Shown: positions 5,070 through 19,661 of the stretch, one piece after another
How positions within the stretch are numbered: the stretch's first letter is position 1
Layout: the number at the start of each line of letters is the position of its first letter
DNA from: Nostoc sp.
GTDB taxonomy: Bacteria > Cyanobacteriota > Cyanobacteriia > Cyanobacteriales > Nostocaceae
Length of the DNA stretch: 24,000 nucleotides
Assembly: GCF_036917755.1 (NCBI RefSeq)
Contig: NZ_JBALFC010000090.1
Location: 46,205-70,204 of the forward strand
Reading direction: 5' to 3'
Notes under the pieces: model-generated
What the model was told of the DNA's origin: nothing
Databases searched by the model: none
Seen by the model: only the letters and a program-made list of their open reading frames with translations
Program-made: the position numbers and the translations under genes

Positions 5070-5133
5070 TGAAATTCTCCCTTTTCCGTGAAAGAAATGA
5101 GAACTTTACTCTGCTCAAAGTTTCTCTATAAGT

Positions 5134-5177
5134 AGTTAGTTATTAGTTGGTAGTCGCTGACCAACTAATAACTAACT
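5134..5177 (-). repeat. Perfect 18-bp inverted repeat (hairpin) in the psaA2 leader
   Basis: AGTTAGTTATTAGTTGGT (5134..5151) and ACCAACTAATAACTAACT (5160..5177) are exact reverse complements separated by an 8-nt loop. The hairpin lies 65 to 108 nt upstream of the psaA2 ATG and is built from TTAGTTA-type heptamers. Confidence 0.7.
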
Positions 5178-5456
5178 GAAGCAAGAATTTACAACTTTGA
5201 GTTTTGTTTATTGGTAAACTGTTCCACATTGAAGCTGCATAATATCAGAAAGAAAATTCTCTACAAGCTTAGATGCAATAAGAACTTAAGAATGTCTTTC
5301 TGATAAGTTATGCAATTTAGATGAGTTTCAGTTTAATGATTTAACAGCAGAGAAAAAAGCCAGCGATTGACTAACCAGTGACGCTAGATTAGCGAAACAA
5401 AGGTAACTCAAGAGCAATAAGTAGCTGAAAAACTCTTTCTTTGGACGAGAATAGGA

Positions 5457-5483
5457 AATAAAAATGAAGAACCTATGAAGGAA
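5457..5483 (-). promoter_or_regulatory. Candidate FaRLiP box (direct repeat YTTCAT, 11-bp spacing) upstream of psaA2
   Basis: The minus strand reads TTCCTTCATAGGTTCTTCATTTTTATT. It differs by 1 nt over the first 20 nt from the site upstream of chlF (12098..12130). A third TTCAT lies 21 bp further upstream (5496..5500). Confidence 0.45.
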
Positions 5484-5505
5484 AATACTTTCTTAATGAA
5501 AGGTT

Positions 5506-5646
5506 ACATATATAGTAGTCTGCTTTGATTTTTGTTCGCGCAGCGTGGCGTAGCCATAATTATTTGCGTAGGCGGGGAGTGGGGAAGAAGCCTTTTCGGG
5601 GTGTACTGATTTTTTTCAAAAATTAAATACGAGTCCTACTATATGT
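5506..5646. mobile_element. MITE-like insertion of about 141 bp with imperfect terminal inverted repeats
   Basis: The left end ACATATATAGTAGTC (5506..5520) matches the reverse complement of the right end GTCCTACTATATGT (5633..5646), with one AT indel. There is no coding capacity. It lies between the extra CheY gene and the psaA2 control region. Confidence 0.4.
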
Positions 5647-5662: not shown

Positions 5663-6049
5663 TTATCGGTTCCAGCCCAGCACTGCTGAAACTTGGCTAG
5701 CTAGAGTCATTAAATCAAAAGGTTTAGCGATCGCAATTCTCACCCCCAATTTACCAAATTGCTCTAGTTCTTGAGATGATAATGTAGTCGTTAACAAAAT
5801 TACAGGTATATCTTGGGTTACGGAGTTATTCTGTAGTTGGTGCAAAATTGTAGATAAGTCTCTATCGGAGACAAAAGTATCCAGATCCACAAGGATAACA
5901 TCAACTTTTTGCGTCTTTGTTTTAGCGATCGCTTCTTGGCTCGATACCGCCGTCAGTACCTCCCAGCCTTCTACTGTCTCCAAGCAAAGCTGAGTTACTT
6001 CCCGAATAGCATTTTTATTCTCAATCAGTAAGATGCGTCGGGTTTTCAC
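5663..6049 (-). CDS. Single-domain CheY-like receiver, divergent paralog of RfpC with a degenerate acidic pocket (128 aa)
   Basis: GTG start with GGAAGG about 11 nt upstream. It aligns over its whole length with the adjacent RfpC (shared RIL.I, IRE.TQ.CLE, W.V.TA, DVIL.D, LQ.N..TQ.IPVILLT, KP.D..TL..QV). It keeps the acceptor Asp (ILVDLD), the Thr (LLTTT) and the Lys (AIAKPF). The acidic pair is E-N (LLIENKN) instead of D-D, and MPDMDG is replaced by DTFVSDRD. Confidence 0.8.
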   Translation of the reverse strand: MKTRRILLIENKNAIREVTQLCLETVEGWEVLTAVSSQEAIAKTKTQKVDVILVDLDTFVSDRDLSTILHQLQNNSVTQDIPVILLTTTLSSQELEQFGKLGVRIAIAKPFDLMTLASQVSAVLGWNR

Positions 6050-6123
6050 AATTAATATTTACCTTCCAGCTTAGAATCTTCTGGCTTGCGTATATTGCCA
6101 GCTTCTTCTTTTTTTATAGGGTA

Positions 6124-6153
6124 GGCAAAAAATATGAAAAACTAATGAAGAAT
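6124..6153 (-). promoter_or_regulatory. Candidate FaRLiP box upstream of the rfpC paralog
   Basis: The minus strand reads ATTCTTCATTAGTTTTTCATATTTTTTGCC. Two TTCAT units are spaced 11 bp apart (6145..6149 and 6134..6138) and are followed by a T-run. The site lies 75 to 105 nt upstream of the GTG at 6049. Confidence 0.45.
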
Positions 6154-6301
6154 AGATAAGTAAGTAGGCAAGAATAAATTAAACTATGTTACGCAATGTA
6201 AATTTAATTAAATTGGCTCGTAGTAAGCGGCTCCAGCCCGGAAAATCGGGATAGAGGCGCTGACTACAAGCCTTTAATTATTCACGCCTACTTACTTATC
6301 T
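6154..6301. mobile_element. MITE-like element of about 148 bp with perfect 16-bp terminal inverted repeats
   Basis: AGATAAGTAAGTAGGC (6154..6169) and GCCTACTTACTTATCT (6286..6301) are exact reverse complements. The interior is noncoding and contains hairpins. It lies between rfpC and its paralog. Confidence 0.5.
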
Positions 6302-6347
6302 GGCAAAATTCCCTAACAGATCACAAAGAGCAATGAAAATTTCTTTT

Positions 6348-6388
6348 CCCTACTCCCTACTCCCTACTCCCTACTCCCTACTCCCTAT
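6348..6388. repeat. STRR heptamer array CCCTACT x5 plus a partial unit
   Basis: Five exact tandem units span 6348..6382. The array overlaps the last three codons and the TAG stop of rfpC (stop at 6380..6378). Confidence 0.9.
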
Positions 6389-6764
6389 AACTATTAACTA
6401 TCAACGCCTGTGCAACTTGTTCAGACAGAGTAAAGGGATCGTAAGGCTTAGTAATTACTGCCGCCACTTTGAGTTGAGTAAAGTGACGCTGTTCGGCAGC
6501 CTGTGCTTTTGCTGTTAATAAAATCACGGGAATATTTTGGGTTTGAGGATTTGCTTGCAGATTCTCCAATGTCGTCAACCCATCCATATCCGGCATCATT
6601 ACGTCTAAGAGAATCACATCTGGATGTTCACAAGCAGCTTTGAGCAAACCTTCTTTACCAGAACCAGCTGTCACCACTTGCCATTCATTAGCTATCTCTA
6701 GACATATCTGAGTGGTTTCTCGGATATCTTCTTCATCATCAATAATCAAGATACGCTTGTTCAT
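6378..6764 (-). CDS. rfpC: CheY-type single-domain response regulator (128 aa)
   Basis: All canonical receiver residues are present: IIDDEED, ILLDVMMPDMDG, ILLTA and ITKP. It lies immediately downstream of rfpA, as in published FaRLiP clusters. Confidence 0.85.
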   Translation of the reverse strand: MNKRILIIDDEEDIRETTQICLEIANEWQVVTAGSGKEGLLKAACEHPDVILLDVMMPDMDGLTTLENLQANPQTQNIPVILLTAKAQAAEQRHFTQLKVAAVITKPYDPFTLSEQVAQALIVNSYRE

Positions 6765-6991: not shown

Positions 6992-9775
6992 TTAATGATT
7001 AATAGGTAATGTGAAATAAAATGTACTACCTTCCCCTAAAATACTTTCTGCCCAAATCTGCCCTCCGTGCTGTTGTATAATGCTGCGACAGATTGCTAAT
7101 CCCAAGCCAGTTCCCCCTTGATGACGCGAGTTAGAGGCATCGACTTGCTGAAAACGGTCAAAAATCTTTTCTAATTTATCCTCAGGAATTCCTCGCCCCT
7201 GGTCTTTTAGCTGGAATAGGATGTTGGAGTGGCAAGGGTCAGAGGAAGAACTAATCCCTTTTGTGACTTCTGTATTTATTTCTTTCCTAGTCTCTACTTG
7301 GGCGCTCAACCAAACTGTAAAACCTGGAGATGAAAATTTAATCGCGTTGCTGAGTAAGTTCGTGAGTGTCTGGATGATCCGGTCTGAATCTGCCCATAGC
7401 TGCACTGAAAGGGGCGTTAATTCTAGCTTAATCTCTGCTCTTTCGGCCATTGCCCGCATTTCGTCCACTGCTTGACTCATCAAGTCAGCTGCATTGCAGG
7501 TCTGTTTATACATCGTTGCTTTGCCGGAATTGATGCGTTCAATATCAAGGATGTCGTTAATCAGACGCACCAAACGGTTCGTGTTATCAAAGGCAATTTC
7601 CAGCATCCTCTGGCTTTTTTTTGGTTGATCATTTAAGGAACCACGCGCTAGTAAACCTAAAGCGCTGCGAATTGAGGTGAGAGGTGTCCGTAGTTCGTGA
7701 CTTACCACTGAGACAAACTCATCCTTCATTCGCTCGACTATCTGTCGCTCGGTAATATCTTTAAATATGACTACTGCTCCGACAATATCGCCTTGTTCTC
7801 TAATAGGTGTGCTTACATACTCGACTGGAAATTTCGACCCATCACAACGATAAAATATGTCATCAGAAATATGTTGTACTGCCCCAGTTTCCAGAGTGGC
7901 GCGAATCGGATTTTCTTCCCAGCAATAGGGAGCGCCGTCGGGCTGGGAATGTTTTACAATTCCGTGCATAAAGTGATTTTTTAGTTCTTTCACCCCAGAT
8001 AAAAGCATTCTGGCTGCTGCTGGATTGACAAAGGTGATGTTACCTTGGGAATTTAAACCGTAAATTCCCTCACCTGCGGAGTTCAAAATTAACTCGCTCT
8101 GTCGGCTGAGGCGTTCTAGAGAGGCTTGTGTTTGCTGGCGATCGCGTAGTGCCTGTTCGCGTTCGCTCATTTCCCGCAGCAATCTTTCATTAGCACGCTG
8201 TAACTCCGCCGTTCGCTCCTGTACTCGCTCCTCTAGTTCGGCATTCAAGGCAGAGATTTTTTTCTCTGCCTGCTTGCGTTCTTCAATATCTCTCTGTAAG
8301 TCAGCATTGAGTACGTGAACTTTCTGATACAGTTCATATTGATGAATTGCCATCGCAAAGTGACTGCCCAAAGCTTGGGCGAGTTCAATTTCTGCGGTTT
8401 TCCATTCTTGGGCTTGACTCCGCTTTAACTCTCGCCATGCTTCAAAGGATTGAACCGGGCGTTGATGTCGCGCATTATTGCGGTCAGGTCGTCGCGCCCA
8501 CAGAGTTTCTGTGTCTATTTCATGGCGAAAAATACTCAAGTAACCCAATATCTGCTGCCGATATTGCAAGCAAATAACCAATAAGCTGCGAATCCCAGCA
8601 TCAAAAAACGCCTGTGCCAAGTCTGACTGTAGTGCAGCCCGATGTAAATCAGTAATTGCCCACACTAGTTTTCCCTTCCCAACAGTCGCCTCCATGTTTA
8701 ACCACTCTTGCCAACCGGGATGTTCCTCGAAGAGGATGGGGGCATTGGGAATTGGGCATTGGGCATTGGGAATTGGGCATTGGGCATTGGGCATTGGGCA
8801 TGGGGCATTGGGCATTGGGCATGGGGCATTGGGCATTGGGCATGGGGCATTGGGCATTGTTATTCTTTGCTCCTCATCTCCCTCATCTCCCTCATCTCCC
8901 CCTGCTCCCCTCCTCCCCCATTCCCTCACTCCCCCACTCCCCCACTCCCCCACTCCCCCACCCCCTCGCTGCCCCATTCCCCAATCCCCACAGCTAAACA
9001 CCTGAGCCGCCTCACCTGGGTTTTGGGGAGCAATATAAATTCTGCCGCCAGCAGACTGTAAAGCAGATACAGTCAACTCCAGCGCTTGTTGTAACTGCAT
9101 TTCGGTCATGGAATGCAGTAGCTTGGCCACGCGGTTAATTGTGGCTTCTTGGTCAGCTTGGGCGCGGGTTTGTTCGAGGAGGGTATTTTGAGCGATCGCA
9201 ATTGATAATTGATCTGCAACCAGTTGCACTACCTGTAATTCCCGCTCGCTCACCTGTCGGGGTGAACTGTGATGAGATACCAACAACCCCCATAATTGGT
9301 TACGATGCAAAATTGGCACAACTAGAGAAGACTGCACTCCCATTGAGGTGAGGTATTCTACATGACATGGGTCTACGAGTCGAAACCGCATATTATTTTC
9401 ATCAAGTGGCTCGGTCGTTTCTAGACTATCTAAGGGACTCAGCCCAATTTGCTGGGCTGCAACATCCACAATTGAGCGCTGACGAGCTTTCAGAAACAAC
9501 TTCCGAGCTTCAAGTGGAATATCCTCAGCCGGAAAGTGTTGTCCTAATAGAGATGGTAAGCGATCGCAGTTAACCGACTCAGCCACAACCTCACCGCTAG
9601 CATCTGGATCAAAACGATACACTTTAACGCGGTCAGTCCCCAAGAATGTACGTACTTCAGCAACCGTTCCTGAGAGGATTGCTGGCAACTCTAGGGATTG
9701 ACGAATGCGGTTCATCATCCGATGTAACAGCGCTTCCAAGGAGTCGATCGGCTTTTGTTTTTTGTCTTTTGTCAT
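6992..9775 (-). CDS. rfpA: Knotless phytochrome sensor histidine kinase (927 aa)
   Basis: The N-terminal GAF domain has the bilin Cys-His (VDPCHVEYL, Cys137) with no PAS domain ahead of it. A second GAF/PHY-like domain carries the tongue-like motif [12 protein letters not shown] coiled coil and a PAS domain ([12 protein letters not shown]) follow. The kinase has the H-box [10 protein letters not shown] and the HATPase boxes [15 protein letters not shown] and [14 protein letters not shown] lies about 10 nt upstream of the ATG at 9775. Confidence 0.9.
8740..8962. repeat. Composite short tandem repeat block inside the rfpA coding sequence
   Basis: On the plus strand there are 17 tandem heptamers GGGCATT/GGGAATT/GGGCATG (8740..8858), then a CCTCATCTC 9-mer x3 (8872..8898), then an ACTCCCCC 8-mer x4 (about 8929..8960). 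On the rfpA strand this is translated as ...[73 protein letters not shown].... Confidence 0.95.
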
Positions 9776-9830
9776 TTGTCAGTTGTCCTCAGATAGCGGC
9801 AAACCGAGAAAGTCACGTCGCTTTGCTCCG

Positions 9831-9858
9831 AATTCAAAATTCAAAATTCAAAATTCAA
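9831..9858. repeat. STRR heptamer array AATTCAA x4
   Basis: Exact tandem units lie in the rfpA upstream spacer. Confidence 0.9.
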
Positions 9859-9880
9859 ATTAACAATCCCCATAAATAAA

Positions 9881-10066
9881 TGATATGTTGGCAAATTGAT
9901 AGCGGGTCTAACCCATCAGCCTTAATCCATCTTAATTTCTTTAATTTCAGTGCGTTTCAACGCACTTTAGCTATTAGCCCGCAATTTATTGTCGGGCGGG
10001 AAAGCAACGCAAAACCAAGATTTTAGGTATGAGGTTTAACCCCTCGTAAATTGACCAACATGATCA
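9881..10066. mobile_element. Possible MITE-like element of about 186 bp with imperfect terminal inverted repeats
   Basis: TGATATGTTGGCAAATT (9881..9897) resembles the reverse complement of AATTGACCAACATGATCA (10049..10066), with about 15 of 18 positions matching and two indels. The interior hairpin AGTGCGTT..AACGCACT followed by TTAGCTATTAG resembles the unit at 11807..11835. Confidence 0.3.
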
Positions 10067-10099
10067 TAAATTTAGGGGCTTGTAATTATGAATTAAAAT

Positions 10100-10381
10100 T
10101 ACAGCAGATTTCAAGGAAAGTGAAGTACACAACGATTCGTCTCAAAGCCAGGTATAAAGCCTGTTTTACTTCTGAATTCTGACTCCTGAGAGGATGTTTT
10201 AAAAGTCCTCTTGTCGGTAGCAAAACGTTCTAGATCCCCCTAAATCCCCCGATAAATTGGGGGACTTTGATTCTGGTTCCCCCCTTTTTAAGGGGGGCTA
10301 GGGGGGATCATTAAGCGCCTAAAATCACCGCCAAACACTTTTAAAACATCCTCTGACTCCTGAATTCTGAATTCTGCTGTA
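10100..10381. mobile_element. Copy A of a roughly 106-bp MITE (TA-flanked, TACAGCAGA... ends), interrupted by a second element
   Basis: It shares blocks of 16, 12 and 33 identical nt with copy B at 16585..16690. The ends TACAGCAGATTTCAAG and CTGAATTCTGCTGTA are inverted repeats. TA flanks both copies on both sides. The right end abuts the stop codon of the rfpB-like gene. Confidence 0.7.
10189..10354. mobile_element. Inner MITE of about 166 bp nested in copy A
   Basis: The 18-bp perfect terminal inverted repeats are AGAGGATGTTTTAAAAGT (10189..10206) and ACTTTTAAAACATCCTCT (10337..10354). It is flanked by an 8-bp direct repeat GACTCCTG (10181..10188 and 10355..10362). The interior holds the palindromes GATCCCCCTA...TAGGGGGGATC. 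Confidence 0.7.
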
Positions 10382-11485
10382 TCAATTATTTTCATCGTCT
10401 ACAACATAATGACAAAGTACTTTATCCAATTCTCTAAATGCAGGCTGCTCTAGTTCTCCAGAAAGAAGTTCTACTAAATGGCGAAGACGCAATGCCTCAT
10501 TTTGGTCAAGAGTAATTTGGGATAGCAATATTTGCTCTATGTGTTTAGCCAGACGTGAACCTTCCGCAAAGCCAAAAATCCCCAAAGCTCCCCCTAACTT
10601 ATGTGCTGCATGATATGCTTTTTGCCGTAATTCTTCAGAGAGATTGTTAGCTTGTAATTCGAGTGAGGCTTGTTGTAGAATTTCTAAGCGATCGCTACTG
10701 TGTACTTTCAACTTCTCCCACACAACTGCTAATGCTTCCCTAATCTGTGGCTTCCTCTTGCTTTGGCTTTTTTTTATTTGTCTTGAGGCTACAGAAGGTT
10801 TTTCTTCATCTGCAAATACTTTCAGACGATAACCCAAACCATAGACTGTTTCAATAAAATCAGTTGGTGCGCCAGCTTGCGTTAGTTTTTGCCGCAAACC
10901 CTTGATGTGAGATGTCACCGTATCTTCTTTAGGTGCTTCTTCTACAGACCAGAGGTGGTCTAAAATTTCACTGCGGCTGAAGACAATATGCTCGTTACGA
11001 AGAAAAAGCTCCAGTAAACGATACTCTTTAGGCGTTAAATTCAAACTATGAGAACCATAAGTCACTTCACAGCTACCAGGGTCAATACGCAGTTTTTCCC
11101 ATTTCATCACTGACAAAATGGGTGAATTTCGTCGCCGCAATAAAACGCGAATTCGAGCTAATAATTCCGATAGTTCAAAAGGTTTAACAACATAATCATC
11201 TGCTCCGGCATCTAATCCCATCACTTTGTGAGTGCTAGAATTTTGGCCTGTCAGTAGCATTATAGGTGTTTGATAATTATGGGAACGTAACCTCTGACAA
11301 AATTTTATGCCGTCCAATTTGGGCAGAATGACATCTAGCAAAATTAAGTCATAGCTAAAAGCTTCTACTAGCTCCCAACCAAGCAGACCATCAGCAGCAA
11401 TATCAACTACATAGTGTTGATTACCAAGGACACTTTCAAGTGTTTTGGTGATACACTCGTCATCTTCAACTAGTAAAATTCTCAT
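10382..11485 (-). CDS. rfpB: OmpR/PhoB-family response regulator with a C-terminal HPt domain, in the rfpB position (367 aa)
   Basis: The REC domain has LLVEDDE, ILLDVILPKLDG, MLLTG and VVKPF. The winged helix has LTPKEYRLLELFLRN and GLGYRL. The C-terminal domain is HPt-like (AYHAAHKLGGALGIFGF...AKHIEQ). It lies directly upstream of rfpA. The symbol is assigned by position only; the domain architecture differs from the published description (see findings). Confidence 0.7.
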   Translation of the reverse strand: MRILLVEDDECITKTLESVLGNQHYVVDIAADGLLGWELVEAFSYDLILLDVILPKLDGIKFCQRLRSHNYQTPIMLLTGQNSSTHKVMGLDAGADDYVVKPFELSELLARIRVLLRRRNSPILSVMKWEKLRIDPGSCEVTYGSHSLNLTPKEYRLLELFLRNEHIVFSRSEILDHLWSVEEAPKEDTVTSHIKGLRQKLTQAGAPTDFIETVYGLGYRLKVFADEEKPSVASRQIKKSQSKRKPQIREALAVVWEKLKVHSSDRLEILQQASLELQANNLSEELRQKAYHAAHKLGGALGIFGFAEGSRLAKHIEQILLSQITLDQNEALRLRHLVELLSGELEQPAFRELDKVLCHYVVDDENN

Positions 11486-11855: not shown

Positions 11856-12097
11856 CGGTTCTGGCAGTTCAAGTATTTTTGCAATAGGTTTATTATTGAC
11901 TGTTCTCTGATCCAAAACTTATACAGCTTCAAGCAAATTTACATTTCTTTACTTATTTTGATAATTTAAACGTGACTTATATATTCATTTTTTAATGCCT
12001 CTATCTATTTCTAGAGCCGTCATTGAAGAGGCCAGGGCTAGGTCTTTCCCCTCTGACCTTTCTGATGAATATTGTTAACTTATGTGAAGATATCAAC

Positions 12098-12130
12098 TTC
12101 CTTCATTGGTTCTTCATGTTTTTTTATTAT
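12098..12130 (+). promoter_or_regulatory. Candidate FaRLiP box plus -10-like TATTAT upstream of chlF
   Basis: The sequence is TTCCTTCATTGGTTCTTCATGTTTTTTTATTAT. The TTCAT units at 12102 and 12113 are spaced 11 bp apart. TTCATT is followed 17 nt later by TATTAT. The site lies about 135 nt upstream of the chlF start. Confidence 0.45.
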
Positions 12131-12266
12131 CTTCCTTGACATCGACCTTGAAGTAGTTTTTGTCTCAGAGGCTTTGGTTTGAGTGCAAAAGATTATTCTG
12201 TTGTCTCCGGTTTTAGAAACTGTGGCGATAGAGAATTTCTATTTAATTATGCAAGGATCTATTAAG

Positions 12267-13478
12267 ATGGCGCCAAAGTCAGACAGCATAATTGCAACTT
12301 CGACTGTTAGCGTAAATGAGGTAGTGAGAGCGGCGGCTACCGCCGACGTTAACTGTCATGAGGCGCGGGTTACGCCTGCAAATCACAATCTTCAAACAAT
12401 AGCAACAAACATCTTAGAAAGACGCGAGAAGATTAGTTTATGGGAAAAGTTTTGTTCATGGGTGACGAGTACTGAAAATCGGCTATATATTGGCTGGTTT
12501 GGCATACTGATGATTCCTACTATTTTAACGGCAGCCACCGTTTTCATCATTGCCTTTATTGCCGCTCCGCCCGTAGATATGGGCGGAATGGGTTCACCAA
12601 TTTCCGGTTCTTTATTCGACGGCAATAATATCATTTCAGCCGCCGTAGTACCCACATCAGCTGCAATTGGTTTGCACTTTTACCCAATTTGGGAAGCTGC
12701 TTCTTTTGATGAGTGGCTTTACAGTGGCGGTCCTTATCAGATGATTGTGCTGCACTTTTTGATTAGCATCATCTGTTACCAAGATCGGGAATGGGAATTG
12801 AGCTATCGCTTAGGGATGCGTCCCTGGATTTCTCTCGCGTTCACTGCTCCCGTTGCTGCTGCCATCTCTGTATTCTTAATTTACCCAATTGGGCAAGGGA
12901 GTTTTTCTGCGGGAATGCCTTTAGGGATTTCCGGTACTTTTAACTTCATGTTGCAGTTTCAAGCAGATCACAATATTCTGATGAGTCCGTTACATCAGTT
13001 AGGGGTGATTGGGGTATTAGGTGGTGCAATGCTGAGTGCGATGCATGGTTCTTTAGTGACATCGACCTTGATTCGTACCAAAGAAAGCGACTCAGAATCG
13101 ATTAATACCGGATACAAACTCGGTCAAAAACATCCAACCTACAACTTTGGGTCTGCTCAATTCTATCTGAGGCGGTTGGTATGGCGGCGTGCAAGTTTTC
13201 CTAACTCTCGCAAATTGCATTTTTTCCTAGCGGCTTTTCCAGTAGCAGGAATTTGGTCTGCGGCCTTAGGGGTTGATGTCGCTGCATTTAACTTTGAAAA
13301 ACTCACATTTGATCAGCCAGAAATCAAAAGCCAAGGCCGAGTTATTAACACTTGGGCAGACACAATTGATTGGGCTGATTTGGGGATAAAAGTGGCAGGC
13401 GAAAGCGATCGCCGAGTTTATAACTTCTCTGAAGATTTAGCTACAGGGGAAGCCATCCCGTTGAGTTTTGAATTTTAA
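12267..13478 (+). CDS. chlF: Chlorophyll f synthase, super-rogue D1 paralog (PsbA4)
   Basis: It has a D1-family fold ([32 protein letters not shown]). Water-oxidation ligands are lost: D170 to A (GSFSAGMP), E189 to D (QFQADHN) and H332 to G (KVAGES). The D1 Met127-Gly128 position reads QD ([10 protein letters not shown]). The start is uncertain: ATG 12267 has AAGGA 9 nt upstream, and ATG 12249 or GTG 12183 are alternatives. Confidence 0.9.
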
Positions 13479-13484
13479 ATTACT

Positions 13485-13628
13485 TGGGAACGTGCATTTC
13501 ATAGCATTTTAGATTCCTCGTTCCCAGTGTCAGACTGTGAACGCATTCAGAGAGTTTCTACCTTCGGCGATCGCCAGTATGAGGCAGTAGCCCACCTGTA
13601 GGCATTCCCAGCCTGAGATTGGGAACGA
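13485..13628. repeat. Cluster of TTCCCAG/TGGGAA hairpin units filling the chlF-psbA3 spacer
   Basis: TGGGAACG...CGTTCCCA spans 13485..13526. TTCCCAGTGTCAGACTGTGAA follows from about 13521. GCATTCCCAGCCTGAGATTGGGAACGAG spans 13601..13628. A HIP1 site lies in between. Confidence 0.65.
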
Positions 13629-13660
13629 GAAACAAGAAGTTTTTGAATTTGGAATTATTT

Positions 13661-14752
13661 ATGACTACGATTTTGCAACGAGAGAGGCGCCGTTTCCCAA
13701 CCTGGGAAAGGTTCTGTAATTGGGTTACTAGCACTGAAAATCGGCTATATATCGGCTGGTTTGGTGTCTTAATGATTCCCCTCTTGGGAGTTTCCTTCTG
13801 CGTCTTCACCATCGCCTTCATCGCCGCGCCGCCAGTTGACATTGACGGTATCCGCGAACCGGTAGCTGGTTCACTACTCTACGGTAACAACATCATTACC
13901 GGCGCCGTAGTTCCCATGTCCAACGCTATAGGCTTACATTTTTATCCCATCTGGGAAGCCTCTTCTATGGACGAATGGCTATACAACGGTGGCCCCTACC
14001 AGATGATTGCATTTCATTACATACCTGCCCTTAGTTGTTACATGGGGCGTGAATGGGAATTATCTTACCGTCTTGGTATGCGTCCTTGGATTTGCGTAGC
14101 CTACAGCGCACCGTTGGCAGCTACAACCTCCGTATTCTTGATTTATCCCATTGGACAAGGCAGTTTTTCTGATGGTCTGCCTATGGGTATCAGTGGTACT
14201 TTCAATTTCATGTTTGTGTTTCAAGCCGAACACAATATCTTGATGCATCCCTTCCATATGTTGGGAGTGGCTGGAGTACTTGGAGGTTCACTATTCTGTG
14301 CCATGCACGGTTCACTGGTAACATCTAGCTTGATACGTGAAACCACCGAATTAGAATCCCAGAACCTTGGTTATAAATTCGGTCAAGAAGGAGAGACTTA
14401 CAACATTGTTGCGGCGCACGGCTACTTTGGTCGTTTGATTTTCCAGTACGCCAGCTTTAACAATAGCCGATCGCTCCATTTCTTCCTTGCAGCTTGGCCC
14501 GTAGTTTGCATTTGGGCTGTAGCTCTAGGTATCAGCACAATGGGATTTAACCTGAACGGATTTAACTTCAATAACTCAATTCTCGACTCTGAAGGTCATG
14601 TACTTCCATCTTGGGCTGATGTTTTGAATCGGGCAAACTTGGGCTTTGAAGTAATGCACGAGCGCAATGCTCATAACTTCCCATTGGATCTTGCTAGTGG
14701 CGAAGCATATTCTGTGCCAGTTGCACTTCAAGCGCCTGCAATTGCTGGTTAG
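13661..14752 (+). CDS. psbA3: Photosystem II D1, far-red paralog (363 aa)
   Basis: The start is trimmed to [21 protein letters not shown]. All Mn4CaO5 ligand positions are retained: D170 (GSFSDGLP), E189 (FQAEHN), H332-E333 ([10 protein letters not shown]) and D342-L-A344 followed by a C-terminal extension. The divergent helix [14 protein letters not shown] differs from FHFLLG of standard D1. Confidence 0.9.
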
Positions 14753-14813: not shown

Positions 14814-15290
14814 ATGAGCATAGTTACAGAATTGATTTTGAATGCTGATAGTGAATCTCGCTATCCTGCTCCCAAAGAGCTAAGAGTTTTTCAAGAATTT
14901 TTGAAAAGTGGAGAGCAGCGAATTCGCATTGCCAAAATATTATCACAGAACGAACAACAAATTGTCCAAAATGGTAGCCAAAAATTTTGGGAACGGTGTC
15001 CTAACACTCCCAGTAATAGCGGCAATGAGCGCAAGACAGCTTCTTGTCAACGCGACCAGGGTTGGTATGTCCGCTTAGTTGCCTATTCTATCTTAGCAGG
15101 CAGTGAGAAACCCCTGGAAGAAATTGGCACGATTGGCATTAAGGAAATGTACAACAATTTAGAAATTCCTCTCAGAAATATCGTTGAGGCTATGCGCTGC
15201 GTTAAAGATGAAGCCATATCTTTGCTGAGTGAGGAAGATGCAGTCGAAGTCGGACCTTATTTTGACTACATCATTAGAGCGTTGTCATAG
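14814..15290 (+). CDS. apcA2: Allophycocyanin alpha-type subunit, far-red paralog (158 aa)
   Basis: It is alpha-AP-like (MSIVTELILNAD...YFDYIIRALS). It carries the far-red-type signature FWERCPNTPSNSGN and SCQRDQGWYVRL where standard ApcA has PGGNAY and TCLRDLDYYLRL. The A2 name comes from gene order only. Confidence 0.65.
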   Translation: MSIVTELILNADSESRYPAPKELRVFQEFLKSGEQRIRIAKILSQNEQQIVQNGSQKFWERCPNTPSNSGNERKTASCQRDQGWYVRLVAYSILAGSEKPLEEIGTIGIKEMYNNLEIPLRNIVEAMRCVKDEAISLLSEEDAVEVGPYFDYIIRALS

Positions 15291-15394
15291 GAAAGTTAAG
15301 GATGAAGTATGAAGTTTAAAAAAGTAAGTTCTTACTTCATCTTTTCCTAACTGCTAATTACCAATATTTCGGAAATAAATTTAGGAGAAAAATA

Positions 15395-15880
15395 ATGCAA
15401 GATGCAATTACTGCTTTGATTAATACCTCTGACGTTCAAGGCAAATACTTAGATAATAGTTCTTTAGACAAGCTGCAAAGTTATTTCCAGAGTGGTGAAG
15501 TCCGTGCTCGTGCAGCCACCACAGTTAGTGCCAATGCTAAAAATATTGTCACTAAAGCAGTTGCTAAATCTCTACTTTACACGGATATTACTGGCCCTGG
15601 TGGGAATATGTATACTTGCCGTCGTTATGCAGCTTGTATCCGGGATTTAGATTATTTTCTGCGCTACGCCACCTATGCCATGTTAGCTGGTGATCCATCA
15701 ATTCTTGATGAGCGGATTCTAAATGGCTTGAGAGAAACTTACAACTCTTTGGGCGTTCCTGTTGGTGCAACTATCCGCTCGGTGCAAGCCCTGAAAGAAG
15801 TATCCACAAGCATCGTAGGTGCTGATGCGGGTAAAGAACTGGGTGTCTATTTCGACTACATTGCTTCTGGCTTGAGCTAA
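15395..15880 (+). CDS. apcB2: Allophycocyanin beta-type subunit, far-red paralog (161 aa)
   Basis: It starts [20 protein letters not shown], has [25 protein letters not shown], and ends [10 protein letters not shown]. An AGGAGA Shine-Dalgarno is upstream. Confidence 0.85.
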
Positions 15881-15886
15881 ATAATT

Positions 15887-16060
15887 GGGGAGTGGGGAGT
15901 AGGGAGTAGGGAGTAGGGAGTAGGGAGTAGGGAATTAAGAGTTAGGAGTTAGGAATTGAAAGTCAATCCATCTCCCTCATCCTCCTCATCCCCCTCATCC
16001 CCCTCATCCTCCTCATCCTCCTCATTCCCCCATTCCCCACTCCCCACTCCCCACTCCCCA
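15887..16060. repeat. Inverted STRR arrays filling the apcB2-apcD2 spacer
   Basis: The left array has 11 heptamer-phased units, GGGGAGT x2, AGGGAGT x4, then AGGGAAT/TAAGAGT/TAGGAGT/TAGGAAT/TGAAAGT (15887..15963). The right side has CCYCCTCAT 9-mers x6 (15972..16025), then TCCCCAC x4 (16033..16060). The TCCCCAC units are the reverse complement of the left-array unit. Confidence 0.9.
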
Positions 16061-16065
16061 CTCCT

Positions 16066-16545
16066 ATGAGCATTATTACAAAATCAATTGCTAGCGCTGA
16101 TCGGGAAGCTCGCTATCTCAATCCTGGTGAGTTAAACGCTATTCGCAACTTTTATGAAGGTGGATTTTCTCGGCTGCGTATTGCTGTAACTCTGACAGAA
16201 AATGAAGAAAAAATTGTCGAAAAGGCAAGTCTCAAGTTTTGGGAACGATGTCATGATACTCCCAGTAATAGTGGGAATAGAATTTATCGGTCTTCCTGTT
16301 TGCGTGACCAAGGTTGGTATATTCGTCTGATTACATATTCTATACTGCTGCAAGATATCGAGCCGCTCGCAGAAATTGGCACTATTGGGGTTCAGGAAAT
16401 GTATAACTCTTTAGAAATTCCACTCCCCAATCTAGTGATAGCAATTCGTTGTCTGAAAGAAGTTTCTTTAGACCTTTTTAATTTAGAAGATGCTGCGGAG
16501 TTAGCACCTTACTTTGACTACTTAATTCAGGAGTTGACACCTTAA
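16066..16545 (+). CDS. apcD2: Allophycocyanin alpha-type subunit, far-red paralog (159 aa)
   Basis: It starts MSIITKSIASADREARYLNPGEL, carries FWERCHDTPSNSGN and SCLRDQGWYIRL, and ends YFDYLIQELTP. The D2 name comes from gene order. Confidence 0.65.
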   Translation: MSIITKSIASADREARYLNPGELNAIRNFYEGGFSRLRIAVTLTENEEKIVEKASLKFWERCHDTPSNSGNRIYRSSCLRDQGWYIRLITYSILLQDIEPLAEIGTIGVQEMYNSLEIPLPNLVIAIRCLKEVSLDLFNLEDAAELAPYFDYLIQELTP

Positions 16546-16584
16546 GGAAGAGTTAGGAGTTAGGAGTTAAGAATTTTGAATTAA

Positions 16585-16690
16585 TACAGCAGATTTCAAG
16601 TTGATGAAGTACACAAGCTAAGTCTTAAAGCTAGGTATAAAGCCTGTTTTACTTCTGAATTCTGAATTCTGAATTCTGAATTATGCTGTA
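16585..16690. mobile_element. Copy B (uninterrupted, 106 bp) of the TACAGCAGA MITE
   Basis: It is TA-flanked, with inverted ends TACAGCAGATTTCAAG and CTGAATTATGCTGTA. It contains an internal CTGAATT heptamer run. It is homologous to 10100..10381 without the nested element. Confidence 0.7.
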
Positions 16691-16729
16691 ACTTCTAACT
16701 ATTACCAATTACCAATTACCTTTTTAACA

Positions 16730-18973
16730 ATGAATATAAAAGCAAGTGGTGGTAGCCCTGTTACTTACCCGCAAAGATATCAGACTTTACCTATTGCAGT
16801 AATTTCGCAATCTGAACAACAAGACCGCTATTTAAAGCAGACTGAAGTTGAGGAACTAGGAGCATTTTTTAGTTCTGGTAATCAGCGGTTAGAAATTCTG
16901 GAAACATTGACTCGTAATGCAGACGAAATTGTGTCTGCTGGAGCAAACCGGATTTTTTATGGTGGTTCGCCGATGGCTTATCTGGAAAAGCCTCAAGACC
17001 CTGTGGGATTACCTGGTTCTGGTTATTATGTGGCTGAGGATTACCTGACGGCGGCGAGGAGAAGTGGTGTTACTTCTAGTAAGGAACGCCTCAACTTAAC
17101 AGACAATCTAAACTTTTTTAATCCTTTGAGCGGTTGGTTGGAACGAGCGCGGACTCTTTTGACTGATAGAGAACCACTTCCTGGGGGTTTCCGCTTTATC
17201 AATATCTCTCGCTATGGGGCAACGAGAATGAAAAGATCCATGCGAGATTTAGCATGGTTCTTACGTTATATCACTTTTGCCATAGTTGCAGGAGATGACA
17301 GTATTCTGACAGCTAATGTTCGGGGATTACGCGGTGTCATTCCAGAAGATGTAACGGATGCTACTGTGGTTGCTCTCAAGGAAATGCAACGCCAATCCCT
17401 TACTTACTTCCCAGAAAATGCTGAGGCGGGGGAACTGATAAAGCAATCTTTTCAGACATTGATAACTGAATATTTAGCAGAAAAACCCTCAGTAAAACTC
17501 AGGGTTGGGGTTTCTAACGAACAGCAAGGTTTAGTATTACCTCAAAGTTATGCGATCGCGGCAGAACATCGACTAAAATTTGTGATCAAGTCGGTGCTAT
17601 CAGAAACGGAAAAGCAAGCGGCAATTCAAGCTGCTTATCGTCAAGTCTTTGAGCGCGATATCACCGCAACTTATGATTTTCCCGCTAGTGAATTGGAATC
17701 TCAGGTTAAAGGCGGTCAAATCTCGACGAAAGAGTTTATCCGCCGCTTGGGTAAATCCCGCCTCTACCGCCGCTTATTCTATGAACCGTTTACTATTAGT
17801 CGCGTTATCGAATTGGCGATGCGTCACTTTTTAGGACGGGGGTTGAGTTCTCTGGCGGAGTTTCAAGAATACTTTGCCATTATTACCAAAGGTGGTCTGC
17901 ATAAGCTGATAGATGCGTTGGTAGATTCCCAAGAATACGCTGATTATTTCACAGAAGAAACTGTACCATACCTGCGCGGCTTAGGTCAGGAAGCTCAAGA
18001 ATGCCGCAATTGGGGACCGCAACTGGAATTGTTAAAGTACAGCGCTTCTGTTCGCAAAGTTCCTCAGTTTCTCACCCTTTTTGGGAAGTATCAGAAACCT
18101 TTACCCAATCAGCATCCCTATGGTTCTGGTAATGACCCGCTAGAAATTCAGTTCGGTGCGATCTTTCCTGTGGAGACTTTGCCTGCAACGACTCTACACA
18201 ATTCTGCACCCTTTGGGAAAGATAATCGTCGCATCCTGATTAGTTCTGAAGGCTTTGGACAAGTTCCAGGCTCTTTGGGAAGGGTGATGAAGCTAGTACA
18301 GACAAATCACCGGAATGGTCATGAAACAAACGGTTCTAGCCCAAAATTGCCCACCGGACTTAGTATCAGCCTGACGGAAAATTCATCATCAGCAGTGATT
18401 CAGGCAGCTTATCGACAGATATTTGGGCGCGATGTTTTTGAAGGTCAGCGTTTAACATCTGTTGTGGAGTCAGAGTTATTATCTGGCGAAATTACGATGC
18501 GGGAGTTTATTCGTCAGTTAGCTAAGTCGAAATTATTCCGCAAAACCTATTGGGAACCTTTGTATGTAACTAAAGCGATTGAATACATCCATCGGCGGTT
18601 GTTGGGTCGTCCTACTTACGGACGTGAGGAAATGAATCGCTATTACGATATCTGTGCAAATCAGGGCTTCTACGCTTTGATTGACAAAATAATCGACAGT
18701 GCAGAATACATTGAAGTTTTTGGTGAAGATACGGTTCCCTATGAGCGGTATGTAACACCAAGGGGTTTGGCGATGCGACAGTCATCAGCTTCTCATGCTC
18801 TCAATATGTCAGAAAAATCGCTGCTTTCATCGCAATCGCAACTGGATCGATTTGTTCCTAACAACCGCAACGGCAAAGTACAACTTTTGCTAGAGTCCGC
18901 GAATGGACATGAGTTAAATGTCGAAATGTCAGCAGAACTGAGTTATGCAGAACCAGAGGTGAGCGATTTGTGA
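16730..18973 (+). CDS. apcE2: Phycobilisome core-membrane linker, short far-red paralog (747 aa)
   Basis: It has an N-terminal phycobiliprotein-like domain with a loop insertion. Only two REP linker domains are present (AIQAAYRQVFERD around aa 300 and VIQAAYRQIFGRD around aa 565). The phycobiliprotein-like domain has no cysteine: RGVIPEDVTDATVVALKE where standard ApcE has ENACS. Confidence 0.9.
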   Translation: MNIKASGGSPVTYPQRYQTLPIAVISQSEQQDRYLKQTEVEELGAFFSSGNQRLEILETLTRNADEIVSAGANRIFYGGSPMAYLEKPQDPVGLPGSGYYVAEDYLTAARRSGVTSSKERLNLTDNLNFFNPLSGWLERARTLLTDREPLPGGFRFINISRYGATRMKRSMRDLAWFLRYITFAIVAGDDSILTANVRGLRGVIPEDVTDATVVALKEMQRQSLTYFPENAEAGELIKQSFQTLITEYLAEKPSVKLRVGVSNEQQGLVLPQSYAIAAEHRLKFVIKSVLSETEKQAAIQAAYRQVFERDITATYDFPASELESQVKGGQISTKEFIRRLGKSRLYRRLFYEPFTISRVIELAMRHFLGRGLSSLAEFQEYFAIITKGGLHKLIDALVDSQEYADYFTEETVPYLRGLGQEAQECRNWGPQLELLKYSASVRKVPQFLTLFGKYQKPLPNQHPYGSGNDPLEIQFGAIFPVETLPATTLHNSAPFGKDNRRILISSEGFGQVPGSLGRVMKLVQTNHRNGHETNGSSPKLPTGLSISLTENSSSAVIQAAYRQIFGRDVFEGQRLTSVVESELLSGEITMREFIRQLAKSKLFRKTYWEPLYVTKAIEYIHRRLLGRPTYGREEMNRYYDICANQGFYALIDKIIDSAEYIEVFGEDTVPYERYVTPRGLAMRQSSASHALNMSEKSLLSSQSQLDRFVPNNRNGKVQLLLESANGHELNVEMSAELSYAEPEVSDL

Positions 18974-18975
18974 AA

Positions 18976-19060
18976 GGGGATGAGGGGGATGAAGAAAGTG
19001 TTTTCCCAATGCCCAATGCCCAAATCCAAAATCCAAAATCTAAAATCTAAAATCCAAAAT
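18976..19060. repeat. Composite STRR block: GGGGATGA x2, spacer, CCCAATG x2, AAATCCA/AAATCTA x5.5
   Basis: Tandem units are read directly. The block fills the whole apcE2-apcD3 spacer. Confidence 0.85.
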
Positions 19061-19064
19061 TGCT

Positions 19065-19586
19065 ATGAGTTTAGTCAAGCAGGTGATTCTGAACGCTGAT
19101 GAAGAATTGCGTTATCCTACCCCGGCAGAAATTCGGATGATTCAGAATTTTTGCGATTCGGGGGAACAACGGATTCGCATTGCTACAACTTTGGCAAAGA
19201 ACCAAAGTCGATTGGTAGAACGAGCTAGTGATAAGTTCTGGAAGGTGTGTCCGGTGACACCCAGTAATAGTGGCAATATGAGGAAGACTGCTTCCTGTCA
19301 ACGCGACCAAGGTTGGTATATCCGTTTAGTTGCTTACTGTATTTTGGCGGGGAATGAGCAACCTTTGGAAGATATTGGCACCATTGGAATGAAGGAAATG
19401 TATCAATCTTTGGGAATTCCGATTTTCAATTGGGTGGAGGCGGTGCGCTGTATCAAAGAAGCAGCACGGGAACTCTTGGGGGATGAGGATGCTGCGATCG
19501 CCACTCCTTATTTCGATCATATCATTCAAACTCTCGCCTCTCCGGGCCCTCCTTATTTTCAGAATAATGGTCGGACGGATTGGTAA
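19065..19586 (+). CDS. apcD3: Allophycocyanin alpha-type subunit, far-red paralog with a C-terminal extension (173 aa)
   Basis: It starts MSLVKQVILNADEELRYPTPAEI and carries FWKVCPVTPSNSGN and SCQRDQGWYIRL. After YFDHIIQTLA there is an extra tail, SPGPPYFQNNGRTDW. The D3 name comes from gene order. Confidence 0.65.
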   Translation: MSLVKQVILNADEELRYPTPAEIRMIQNFCDSGEQRIRIATTLAKNQSRLVERASDKFWKVCPVTPSNSGNMRKTASCQRDQGWYIRLVAYCILAGNEQPLEDIGTIGMKEMYQSLGIPIFNWVEAVRCIKEAARELLGDEDAAIATPYFDHIIQTLASPGPPYFQNNGRTDW

Positions 19587-19639: not shown

Positions 19640-19661
19640 TTATTTACAAAGGACAAATTAT

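What the first reader, a model, noticed from the sequence alone, without database searches (positions are those of the whole stretch)
12098..12130. Conserved direct-repeat motif shared by three promoter regions: a candidate operator for the OmpR-type FaRLiP regulator
Three intergenic sites carry nearly the same 26-33 nt sequence, each on the coding strand of the downstream gene.
- chlF upstream, 12098..12130: TTCCTTCATTGGTTCTTCATGTTTTTTTATTAT.
- psaA2 upstream, minus strand of 5457..5483: TTCCTTCATAGGTTCTTCATTTTTATT.
- rfpC-paralog upstream, minus strand of 6124..6153: ATTCTTCATTAGTTTTTCATATTTTTTGCC.

The consensus is TTCYTTCATWRGTTYTTCAT followed by a T-run. The flanking sequences are unrelated, so this is a short site and not part of a larger dispersed repeat.

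The core is a direct repeat of YTTCAT with 11-bp spacing. That is the geometry typical of OmpR/PhoB winged-helix regulators, and the cluster encodes one. At chlF the first half site, TTCATT, sits exactly 17 nt upstream of TATTAT, which is a -35/-10-like arrangement. I am not aware of a published RfpB binding site, so this is offered as a candidate FaRLiP box.
Basis: partly seen in the sequence, partly recalled or inferred. Interest (0 to 1): 0.8.

Follow-up and report, generated by a model that had tools for sequence, protein, structure and literature searches.

The report
Far-red promoter box, already described
Three promoters in this far-red-light photosynthesis gene cluster share a conserved box that is very probably the docking site of the cluster's own regulator RfpB. 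The box is real and well conserved, but a 2024 preprint already described it and proposed the same role.

Summary

The window is a Nostoc FaRLiP cluster. The sites lie upstream of chlF, psaA2 and a receiver-only response regulator, which the literature calls rfpD.

In 8 independently fetched FaRLiP clusters and 21 cyanobacterial hits of a genome-wide pattern scan, the same architecture recurs. It is YTTCAT-NN-GTT-N-TTCA-K (two YTTCA half-sites 11 bp apart), then exactly 10 T-rich nt, then TAnnnT. It always points at chlF, psbA3, psaA2, rfpD, apcD5 or psbO2.

This matches the Pho-box geometry of PhoB: 11-bp direct repeats 10 bp upstream of the -10, with no -35. The cluster's RfpB is an OmpR/PhoB-family protein. 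A class II RfpB operator is therefore the best explanation, but binding has not been shown.

- The conserved -10 at chlF is TATCTT (12128-12133), not TATTAT.
- The chlF and psaA2 sites also share an 18-bp upstream element.

Novelty is low. bioRxiv 10.1101/2024.05.15.594131 already reports this motif (33-bp short and ~61-bp chlF forms, same gene set) and hypothesises RfpB binding.

New here are the PhoB-like geometry and the resemblance of the upstream element to the RpaB HLR1 box.

The parts
12101..12117 (+). chlF promoter: RfpB-box core CTTCATTGGTTCTTCAT. Two YTTCA half-sites lie 11 bp apart (12101-12106 and 12112-12117).
   Evidence: 39.4 bits. The orthologous position is conserved upstream of chlF in L001, L002, L004, L005, L006, L008, L012, L013, L019, L031, L074, L077 and L083.
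12118..12133 (+). chlF promoter: 10-nt T-rich spacer (12118-12127) followed by the conserved -10-like hexamer TATCTT (12128-12133). The inferred transcription start is about 12139-12141.
Evidence: TAnnnT lies exactly 10 nt after the core in 36 of 37 curated sites, and in 17 of 18 sites not pre-selected by the scan pattern.
12071..12088 (-). chlF promoter: upstream (5') element. Read on the minus strand it is TTCACATAAGTTAACAAT, which resembles the HLR1 box (14 of 16 positions). A 12-bp gap separates it from the core.
   Evidence: The same offset and strand recur in 14 of the 16 best-matching sites across lineages.
5464..5480 (-). psaA2 promoter: RfpB-box core CTTCATAGGTTCTTCAT.
   Evidence: 40.6 bits. 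Orthologous sites lie upstream of psaA2 in L027 and L110.
5448..5463 (-). psaA2 promoter: T-rich spacer (5463-5454) and -10-like TATTCT (5453-5448). The inferred start is about 5442-5440, which implies a 5' leader of about 370 nt before the ATG at 5069.
5493..5510 (+). psaA2 promoter: upstream element. Read on the window's + strand (the strand opposite psaA2) it is TTAATGAAAGGTTACATA, matching HLR1 at 13 of 16 positions. Its offset from the core is the same as at chlF.
6134..6150 (-). rfpD promoter: RfpB-box core CTTCATTAGTTTTTCAT. This is the short form, without the upstream element at the -30 offset.
   Evidence: 46.0 bits. Orthologous short sites lie upstream of receiver-only genes in L003, L007, L013, L027 and L031.
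6118..6133 (-). rfpD promoter: T-rich spacer (6133-6124) and -10-like TACCCT (6123-6118). The inferred start is about 6112-6110. The GTG start codon is at 6049.
10382..11485 (-). rfpB: OmpR/PhoB-family response regulator (REC + winged-helix Trans_reg_C + Hpt) and the presumed binder of the box. This is a short form without the C-terminal receiver domain.
6992..9775 (-). rfpA: phytochrome-type (GAF/PHY/PAS) histidine kinase, the far-red sensor.
   Evidence: Its role is taken from PMC10127269 and PMC5737509.
6378..6764 (-). rfpC: single-domain receiver that acts as the phosphotransfer protein.
   Evidence: Its role is taken from PMC5737509.
   Evidence: The preprint names it rfpD.
12249..13478 (+). 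chlF (psbA4), the chlorophyll f synthase. It is the first gene of the long rightward operon: psbA3, apc genes, psbD3, psbC2 and onward.
   Evidence: No further box occurs downstream in the window.

Best explanation
The box is the activator-dependent core of far-red-induced promoters.

Proposed mechanism (inferred):
1. In far-red light the phytochrome kinase RfpA phosphorylates RfpB through RfpC.
2. Phosphorylated RfpB, an OmpR/PhoB-family winged-helix protein, binds as a head-to-tail dimer to the two YTTCA half-sites, which are 11 bp (one helical turn) apart.
3. The 17-bp site ends exactly 10 bp upstream of a TAnnnT -10 hexamer. It therefore occupies about -39 to -23 and stands in for the missing -35 element.
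4. From there RfpB recruits RNA polymerase carrying a sigma-70-type factor, as PhoB does at Pho boxes (class II activation).

In this window the box drives three transcription units. These are chlF with the psbA3/apc/psb genes, psaA2-psaB2, and rfpD. Because rfpD is itself a receiver protein, its induction would create a feedback loop on the phosphorelay.

Shown here: the sequence, its conservation, orientation, fixed geometry, specificity, the lack of a -35, and the family of RfpB.

Inferred: RfpB binding, the transcription start sites and the activation mechanism.
For: - The three sites are far above chance: 3 matches against 0.03 expected.
- Eight FaRLiP loci fetched through ChlF homologues, without reference to the motif, all carry the same box. 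It lies upstream of chlF, psbA3 or rfpD and points at the gene.
- A weight matrix separates real sites (at least 28.6 bits) from everything else in about 180 kb of FaRLiP loci (next best 16 bits). It also separates them from 98 non-cyanobacterial pattern matches (best 27.7 bits).
- In a scan of one genome per species, 22 of the first 120 hit loci were cyanobacterial. Of those, 21 lie in FaRLiP/rfp gene context.
- Geometry: TAnnnT lies exactly 10 nt after the core in 17 of 18 sites not pre-selected by the scan pattern. E. coli Pho boxes are described as tandem direct repeats with 11-bp period located 10 bp upstream of the -10 consensus TAN3T/A (PMC1906773).
- The sigma-70 consensus scan does not call these promoters, because they have no -35.
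- RfpB has REC + Trans_reg_C domains. Its closest solved relatives are DrrD, RpaA, BaeR, MtrA and PmrA. Its recognition helix is conserved in all RfpBs, as is the box.
- No box lies upstream of rfpA, rfpB or rfpC. This fits sensor genes that must be expressed before induction.
- Independent literature reports the same motif, gene set and hypothesis. RfpABC are reported to activate the cluster transcriptionally.
Against: - No binding experiment, footprint or mapped transcription start exists in the searchable literature or here.
- Of the 37 curated sites, 19 were found through a pattern that already demanded the core and TAnnnT. Their conservation is therefore partly by construction, and only the other 18 sites count for geometry.
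- The whole genome of the source organism was not available, so off-cluster copies in this genome cannot be excluded.
- Liu et al. 2023 found that only 1 of 10 heterologous FaRLiP promoter fragments was far-red-inducible in Chlorogloeopsis. I could not check which fragments carry the box because the supplement is not held.
Confidence: 0.7

Rival explanations
1. The 3' box is a specialised core promoter read directly by an alternative or group-2 sigma factor. Its GTTCTTCA would serve as a -35-like element paired with TAnnnT. RfpB would act elsewhere, for example at the upstream 18-bp element, or indirectly by controlling that sigma factor.
For: - The distance to TAnnnT is rigidly fixed, and conservation is very high across about 33 nt, as expected of a sigma-specific promoter.
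- The upstream element is also a direct repeat of OmpR-family type.
Against: - Short-form promoters (rfpD, many psbA3, psbO2) lack the upstream element yet belong to the same set. The preprint reports rfpD and psbO2 as preferentially expressed in far-red light.
- No sigma factor gene belongs to the cluster.
- Two half-sites 11 bp apart, 10 bp from the -10, is the documented PhoB arrangement.
- In other phyla the same box with an extended -10 lies next to OmpR-type two-component genes.
Confidence: 0.12
2. The box is bound by a different OmpR-family regulator encoded outside the cluster, such as RpaB or RpaA. RfpB would act upstream of that regulator.
For: - Cyanobacteria carry many OmpR-family regulators.
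- RpaA is RfpB's second-closest solved relative.
- HLR1-like elements are enriched in the two regulatory intergenic regions of the window: 5 against 1.2 expected.
Against: - The half-site YTTCAT with 11-bp period differs from HLR1 (KTTACAWW, 10-bp period).
- Among cyanobacterial hits the box occurs almost only beside rfp/FaRLiP genes (21 of 22), so it tracks rfpB and not a universal regulator.
Confidence: 0.08
3. The similarity has no regulatory meaning. It would be a chance match, or a remnant of promoter duplication or a small dispersed repeat.
For: - The preprint infers that the psa and other motifs arose by duplication of the chlF motif.
- The chlF and psaA2 copies share about 63 bp.
Against: - 0.03 matches are expected by chance.
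- The box is conserved across at least five cyanobacterial orders, with invariant positions and variable flanks.
- It is always oriented toward the gene.
- There are only three copies in 24 kb.
- It forms no RNA or DNA hairpin: fold z-scores are -0.5, -0.9 and +1.7.
- No Rfam family matches at the sites.
Confidence: 0.03

Closest known systems
FaRLiP intergenic motif of Antonaru et al., bioRxiv 10.1101/2024.05.15.594131 ('chlF', 'long' and 'short' motifs)
   Same: - T-rich and located within a few hundred bp upstream of chlF, psbA3, psa (Nostocales), rfpD, apc and psbO.
- Absent upstream of rfpA, rfpB and rfpC.
- A 33-bp 3' region. Here that is a 17-nt core, a 10-nt spacer and a 6-nt -10.
- A 5' region separated by a gap of about 12 bp. 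Here that is 18 + 12 + 33 = 63 bp, against their ~61 bp.
- Hypothesised to contact RfpB.
   Different: - I could not compare logos, because the figure is not held.
- The preprint text does not mention direct repeats, half-sites, OmpR geometry, sigma factors or the -10.
- The preprint suggests RfpD may bind DNA. Here RfpD has only a receiver domain.
Pho box / PhoB of E. coli (OmpR/PhoB-family class II activation)
   Same: - Tandem direct repeats with 11-bp period.
- The site ends 10 bp upstream of a TAN3T -10.
- No -35 element.
- The cognate regulator is a REC + winged-helix protein.
   Different: - The half-site sequence is YTTCAT here and CTGTCAT-type there.
- The signal is far-red light sensed by a phytochrome kinase, with an extra phosphotransfer step through RfpC.
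- RfpB carries an Hpt domain and, in most lineages, a second receiver domain.
- Binding is untested.
RcaE/RcaF/RcaC with the L-box, and CcaS/CcaR with the G-box (chromatic acclimation types 3 and 2)
   Same: - A bilin photoreceptor kinase signals to a single-domain phosphotransfer protein and then to an OmpR-class regulator.
- That regulator binds a short repeated box in promoters of light-harvesting genes (PMC5737509).
- From my own knowledge, RcaC shares the REC-wHTH-Hpt-REC layout seen in long RfpBs.
   Different: - The box sequence and the light colours differ.
- The RfpB box controls photosystem and chlorophyll f synthase genes as well as antenna genes.
- The L-box and G-box have experimental binding data. 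The RfpB box has none.
HLR1 box of RpaB, (G/T)TTACA(T/A)(T/A)-N2-(G/T)TTACA(T/A)(T/A)
   Same: - The upstream 18-bp element of the long form matches at 13-15 of 16 positions in 16 sites, always at the same offset and strand.
- Its inferred centre, about -61, falls within the -66 to -45 activating window reported for RpaB.
- PSI genes are classical RpaB-activated targets.
   Different: - The match is imperfect: 14/16 and 13/16 in this window.
- Matches with 3 mismatches are common by chance.
- The transcription start is not mapped.
- The element could equally be a second RfpB site or an UP-like alpha-CTD contact.

Membership tests
Published FaRLiP intergenic motif (bioRxiv 2024.05.15.594131) | [quoted passage not shown] | tested here: met
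   In the window the core starts about 150 nt (chlF), 410 nt (psaA2) and 100 nt (rfpD) upstream of the start codon. Across loci the same gene set is found.
Published FaRLiP intergenic motif (bioRxiv 2024.05.15.594131) | A 33-bp conserved 3' region, plus (in chlF and long forms) a 5' region separated by a gap of about 12 bp, about 61 bp in total. | tested here: met
   The 3' region is 17 + 10 + 6 = 33 nt. The 18-nt 5' element lies at -30 to -13, leaving a 12-nt gap and a 63-nt total.
Published FaRLiP intergenic motif (bioRxiv 2024.05.15.594131) | Not present upstream of rfpA, rfpB or rfpC. | tested here: met
   The matrix scan of the window finds only the three sites.
Published FaRLiP intergenic motif (bioRxiv 2024.05.15.594131) | Sequence agrees with the published logo (Figure 5A). 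| not testable with these tools
   Figures are not held, and Table S11 carries only colour coding.
OmpR/PhoB-type class II activator site (Pho-box-like) | Two or more direct-repeat half-sites with a period of about 11 bp. | tested here: met
   YTTCA occupies positions 0-4 and TTCA positions 12-15. Both are invariant or nearly so in 37 sites.
OmpR/PhoB-type class II activator site (Pho-box-like) | The site abuts the core promoter, about 10 bp upstream of a TAN3T -10, with no -35 consensus. | tested here: met
   TAnnnT lies 10 nt after the core in 17 of 18 sites not pre-selected by the scan pattern. The sigma-70 consensus scan does not call them.
OmpR/PhoB-type class II activator site (Pho-box-like) | A cognate OmpR/PhoB-family regulator is present and genetically linked. 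| tested here: met
   rfpB has REC + Trans_reg_C domains. The box co-occurs with rfp genes in 21 of 22 cyanobacterial hits.
OmpR/PhoB-type class II activator site (Pho-box-like) | The regulator binds the site and activates transcription from a start about 7 nt after the -10. | not testable with these tools
   No EMSA, footprint or transcription start data were found.
HLR1 / RpaB box (upstream element only) | Two octamers KTTACAWW separated by 2 nt. | tested here: inconclusive
   - The window sites match at 14/16 (chlF) and 13/16 (psaA2). Across lineages the match reaches 15/16.
- 16 of 37 sites score at least 13, against 4% of AT-rich background windows.
- No permuted octamer repeat fits as well (0 of 3000).
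- However, 3-mismatch matches are common in the window.
HLR1 / RpaB box (upstream element only) | Centred -66 to -45 from the transcription start for activation. | tested here: inconclusive
   The inferred centre is about -61 if the start lies 7 nt after TAnnnT. The start is not mapped.
Dispersed repeat / mobile element remnant | Many copies in varied, non-promoter positions, terminal repeats, and flanks that move with it. | tested here: not met
   There are three copies, all in promoter position and orientation. Flanks beyond about 63 bp are unrelated. Cyanobacterial hits are confined to rfp/FaRLiP loci.

The most novel reading that the evidence does not exclude
The long (~63-bp) form of the FaRLiP promoter may be a composite of two different OmpR-family operators. 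The first is the RfpB box at about -39 to -23. The second lies 12 bp upstream and is read on the opposite strand: an HLR1-type box for the redox and light-intensity regulator RpaB, centred near -61.

If so, far-red induction of chlF and the PSI paralogues (chlF, psaA2, some psbA3 and apc promoters) would be gated by RpaB. The short-form promoters (rfpD, psbO2, other psbA3) would respond to RfpB alone.
Probability: 0.25. Interest if true: 0.6.

Novelty: already known. Interest (0 to 1): 0.3.

Why it matters
FaRLiP lets cyanobacteria photosynthesise beyond 700 nm. Its far-red-inducible promoters are wanted as light switches for synthetic biology. In 2023 the field still listed the RfpB DNA motif as under study.

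The box is the obvious candidate for that motif, but it has already been pointed out in a preprint. This finding therefore adds an instance, not a discovery.

What this analysis adds is a concrete and testable anatomy:
- two half-sites to mutate;
- an exact -10 and predicted transcription starts;
- a PhoB-like activation model;
- a possible second input through an RpaB-like box, which could explain differences between long-form and short-form promoters.

Tried and rejected
- **Half-sites alone.** YTTCAT-N5-YTTCAT with 2 mismatches is not enriched in the window (10 against 11.9 expected). Only the full box is informative.
Rejected as the conserved arrangement. The aligned -10 lies 3 nt further downstream.
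- **An RNA element or known RNA family.** The sites show no significant folding and no Rfam hit.
- **Kinship of regulators in other phyla.** I tested whether OmpR-type regulators next to the same box outside cyanobacteria share RfpB's recognition helix. They do not: xVD(V/A)HIKNLR against TVT(A/S)HIKGLRQKL. No covariation argument could be made.
- **Comparison with published sequences.** The preprint's Table S11 holds only colour codes. The promoter table of Liu et al. 2023 is not held. The claim that this is the same motif therefore rests on matching lengths, layout and gene distribution.
- **Literature searches.** Searches for RfpB EMSA data and for a peer-reviewed version of the preprint found nothing.
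- **Unused resources.** The metagenome scan, structure prediction and covariance models were not needed.

Full report
**1. Observation**

The three sequences are in the window exactly as described. The 20-mer consensus with up to 3 mismatches finds only these three sites, against 0.03 expected from shuffles. The bare half-site pair is not enriched (10 against 11.9 expected), so the signal is the whole box.

**2. Gene context**

NCBIfam and Pfam scans identify a FaRLiP cluster.

| Gene | Coordinates | Strand | Note |
|---|---|---|---|
| psaB2 | 278-2794 | - | |
| psaA2 | 2703-5069 | - | |
| receiver-only gene | 5663-6049 | - | 128 aa |
| rfpC | 6378-6764 | - | |
| rfpA | 6992-9775 | - | GAF/PHY/PAS histidine kinase |
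| rfpB | 10382-11485 | - | REC + Trans_reg_C + Hpt |
| chlF | 12249-13478 | + | |
| psbA3 | 13619-14752 | + | |
| five apc genes | 14814-19586 | + | |
| psbD3 | 19629-20720 | + | |
| psbC2 | 20835-22235 | + | |

ChlF is 100% identical to a protein from a Nostoc sp. metagenome-assembled genome.

**3. Conservation in loci chosen without reference to the motif**

I fetched eight FaRLiP loci through ChlF homologues. They are Calothrix NIES-3974, Chroococcidiopsis CCALA 051, Pleurocapsa minor, Leptolyngbya NK1-12, Phormidesmis 146-12, cyanobacterium CRU_2_1 and two further assemblies. Every one carries the box upstream of chlF, psbA3 or an rfpD-like gene, pointing at the gene.

The shared architecture has three parts:
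- the core YTTCAT-NN-GTT-N-TTCA-K, which contains two YTTCA half-sites 11 bp apart;
- exactly 10 T-rich nucleotides;
- TAnnnT.

Of 18 sites that the genome-scan pattern did not pre-select, 17 have TAnnnT exactly 10 nt after the core. The remaining site has it at 9 nt.

A 33-nt weight matrix built from those 18 sites scores real sites at 28.6 bits or more. The next best position in about 180 kb of FaRLiP loci scores 16 bits. The window has only the three sites.

**4. Specificity**

I scanned one genome per species (185,579 species) for YTTCATNNGTTCTTCA-N11-TANNNT.
- Twenty-two of the 120 loci are cyanobacterial.
- tblastn with the window's proteins places 21 of those 22 in FaRLiP/rfp context.
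- In those 21, the box points at chlF, psbA3, psaA2, apcD5 or psbO2, or lies directly after rfpA-rfpC.
- The one cyanobacterial hit without this context lacks the T-rich spacer.
- None of the 98 non-cyanobacterial hits reaches the matrix score of a real site (best 27.7 bits).

**5.

The -10 hexamer that aligns across all sites is:
- TATCTT at chlF (12128-12133);
- TATTCT at psaA2 (5453-5448);
- TACCCT at rfpD (6123-6118).

No -35-like hexamer is conserved, and the sigma-70 consensus scan does not call these promoters.

The flanks are not entirely unrelated. The chlF and psaA2 sites, and most chlF, psaA2 and some psbA3 sites elsewhere, share an 18-bp element at -30 to -13 from the core. A 12-bp gap follows it, giving a 63-bp composite. 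The rfpD site has only the 33-bp part.

**6. Mechanism**

RfpB is a standard OmpR/PhoB-family protein. Its closest solved relatives are DrrD, RpaA, BaeR, MtrA, RegX3 and PmrA.

E. coli Pho boxes are described as tandem direct repeats of 8 bp plus a 3-bp linker, located 10 bp upstream of the -10 consensus TAN3T/A (PMC1906773). The RfpB box has the same period, the same distance to the -10 and the same lack of a -35.

I therefore commit to a PhoB-like class II model. RfpA signals through RfpC to phosphorylate RfpB (relay as stated in PMC5737509, and PMC10127269). An RfpB dimer then binds head to tail at about -39 to -23 and recruits RNA polymerase.

The sites do not fold as RNA and match no Rfam family.

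The absence of a box upstream of rfpA, rfpB and rfpC fits sensor genes that must be expressed before induction. The box upstream of rfpD implies far-red-induced feedback on the relay. Both points are inference.

**7. What is already known**

Liu et al. 2023 wrote that studies to identify the RfpB motif were under way.

[quoted passage not shown] Its description includes:
- a ~61-bp chlF motif with 5' and 3' regions separated by a gap of about 12 bp;
- ~59-bp long motifs (psa in Nostocales and Chroococcidiopsidales, apc, some psbA3);
- 33-bp short motifs (psbA3, rfpD, psbO);
- no motif upstream of rfpA, rfpB or rfpC;
- the hypothesis that the motif contacts RfpB.

Lengths, layout and gene distribution all agree with what I derived independently. 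I could not compare the logo itself because the figure is not held.

The preprint text contains no mention of OmpR, direct repeats, half-sites or sigma factors. I found no peer-reviewed version and no binding experiment.

The finding is therefore a correct rediscovery. The direct-repeat reading and the 10-bp geometry are modest additions.

**8. The upstream element**

Read on the strand opposite to the gene, the 18-bp element resembles the RpaB HLR1 box, KTTACAWW-NN-KTTACAWW (consensus from PMC6525291).
- Sixteen of 37 sites match at 13 or more of 16 positions, against 4% of AT-rich background windows.
- Of those 16, 14 sit at the identical offset and 2 are 1 nt off.
- Examples are TTTACAAAAGCTTACATT (15/16) and, at the window's chlF, TTCACATAAGTTAACAAT (14/16).
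- No column-permuted octamer repeat fits the element as well (0 of 3000).
- Its inferred centre, about -61, lies within the -66 to -45 range reported for RpaB-activated promoters.
- In the window, HLR1 matches with 2 or fewer mismatches number 5 against 1.2 expected. All five lie in the rfpC-rfpD and rfpB-chlF intergenic regions.

There are caveats. Matches with 3 mismatches are common (17 against 11 expected). The sites are homologous, so they amount to roughly one evolutionary observation. The transcription start is not mapped. The element could equally be a second RfpB site or an UP-like contact for the polymerase alpha subunit.

I rate the RpaB reading at about 0.25.

**9. Verdict**

- The best explanation is an RfpB class II operator fused to an activator-dependent -10, with confidence 0.7.
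- Novelty: already known. Interest: 0.3.

Noticed in passing
Loci L016, L023, L028, L040, L056, L062, L070, L079, L080, L094, L098, L107, L112, L114 (positions): About 15-19 of the 98 non-cyanobacterial pattern hits lie next to an OmpR-type regulator and histidine kinase pair. They come from Clostridia, Chloroflexi, Treponemataceae, Nitrospiraceae and others. The box lies 58-145 nt upstream of the regulator gene, of a small secreted protein or of an ABC transporter, often with a TG-extended -10. This looks like a widespread promoter type for some OmpR subfamily. The recognition helices of these regulators are not RfpB-like.
   Followed up: partly
L021 2923 (+), L108 (- strand), L121 1730 (+), L104 6748 (+), L120 7253 (+): In Microcoleus-type and Prochloraceae genomes, a full box lies directly after rfpA-like (51-60%) and rfpC-like (55-61%) genes. 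It points at non-photosystem genes: a 72-aa membrane ORF, a 70-aa Cys-rich ORF and NYN/LabA-like proteins. In the FaRLiP strain Hydrococcus rivularis the arrangement is the same, and the box there points at a 97-aa protein. The RfpB regulon may extend beyond photosystem paralogues. The preprint lists some 'hyp' targets.
   Followed up: partly
window 9776-10381 and 10382-11485: RfpB here is a 367-aa short form (REC + wHTH + Hpt), as also in Calothrix NIES-3974. In other lineages RfpB is 600-670 aa and carries a C-terminal second receiver domain. The 600-bp stretch between rfpB and rfpA has stops in all frames and shows no remnant of that domain.
   Followed up: yes
window 6185-6202 (-) and 11938-11955 (+): Two HLR1 (RpaB-box) matches with a single mismatch: TTTACATTGCGTAACATA lies 35 nt upstream of the rfpD box, and TTTACATTTCTTTACTTA lies in the rfpB-chlF intergenic region. 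The second overlaps a consensus-type promoter, TTTACA-16-GATAAT.
   Followed up: partly
L110, oriented positions 3078 and 3318 (- strand): In a close Nostoc relative (psaA2 97% identical) no rfpD gene was detected by tblastn between rfpC and psaA2. This leaves the short box and the long psaA2 box in tandem, 240 bp apart, upstream of psaA2.
   Followed up: no
window 21264-21450 (-): There is a strong Rfam match to IsrR (129 bits), the antisense RNA of isiA, lying antisense inside psbC2. It probably reflects isiA/psbC homology and not a real antisense RNA gene. No promoter check was done.
   Followed up: no
window 5663-6049 (-): RfpD has only a receiver domain by Pfam and NCBIfam. The preprint's supplement suggests it may bind DNA. 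With no recognisable DNA-binding domain, it is more likely a phosphorelay or phosphate-sink component.
   Followed up: partly
window 5070-5441 (-): If the inferred -10 is correct, psaA2 has an untranslated leader of about 370 nt. The equivalent box-to-start distance is 155 nt in L027 and 410 nt in L110. Nothing is known about this leader.
   Followed up: no
window about 6346-6386: A tandem heptamer array (GGGAGTA, about six copies) lies between rfpC and the rfpD promoter. It is typical of the short tandem repeats of heterocystous cyanobacteria.
   Followed up: no
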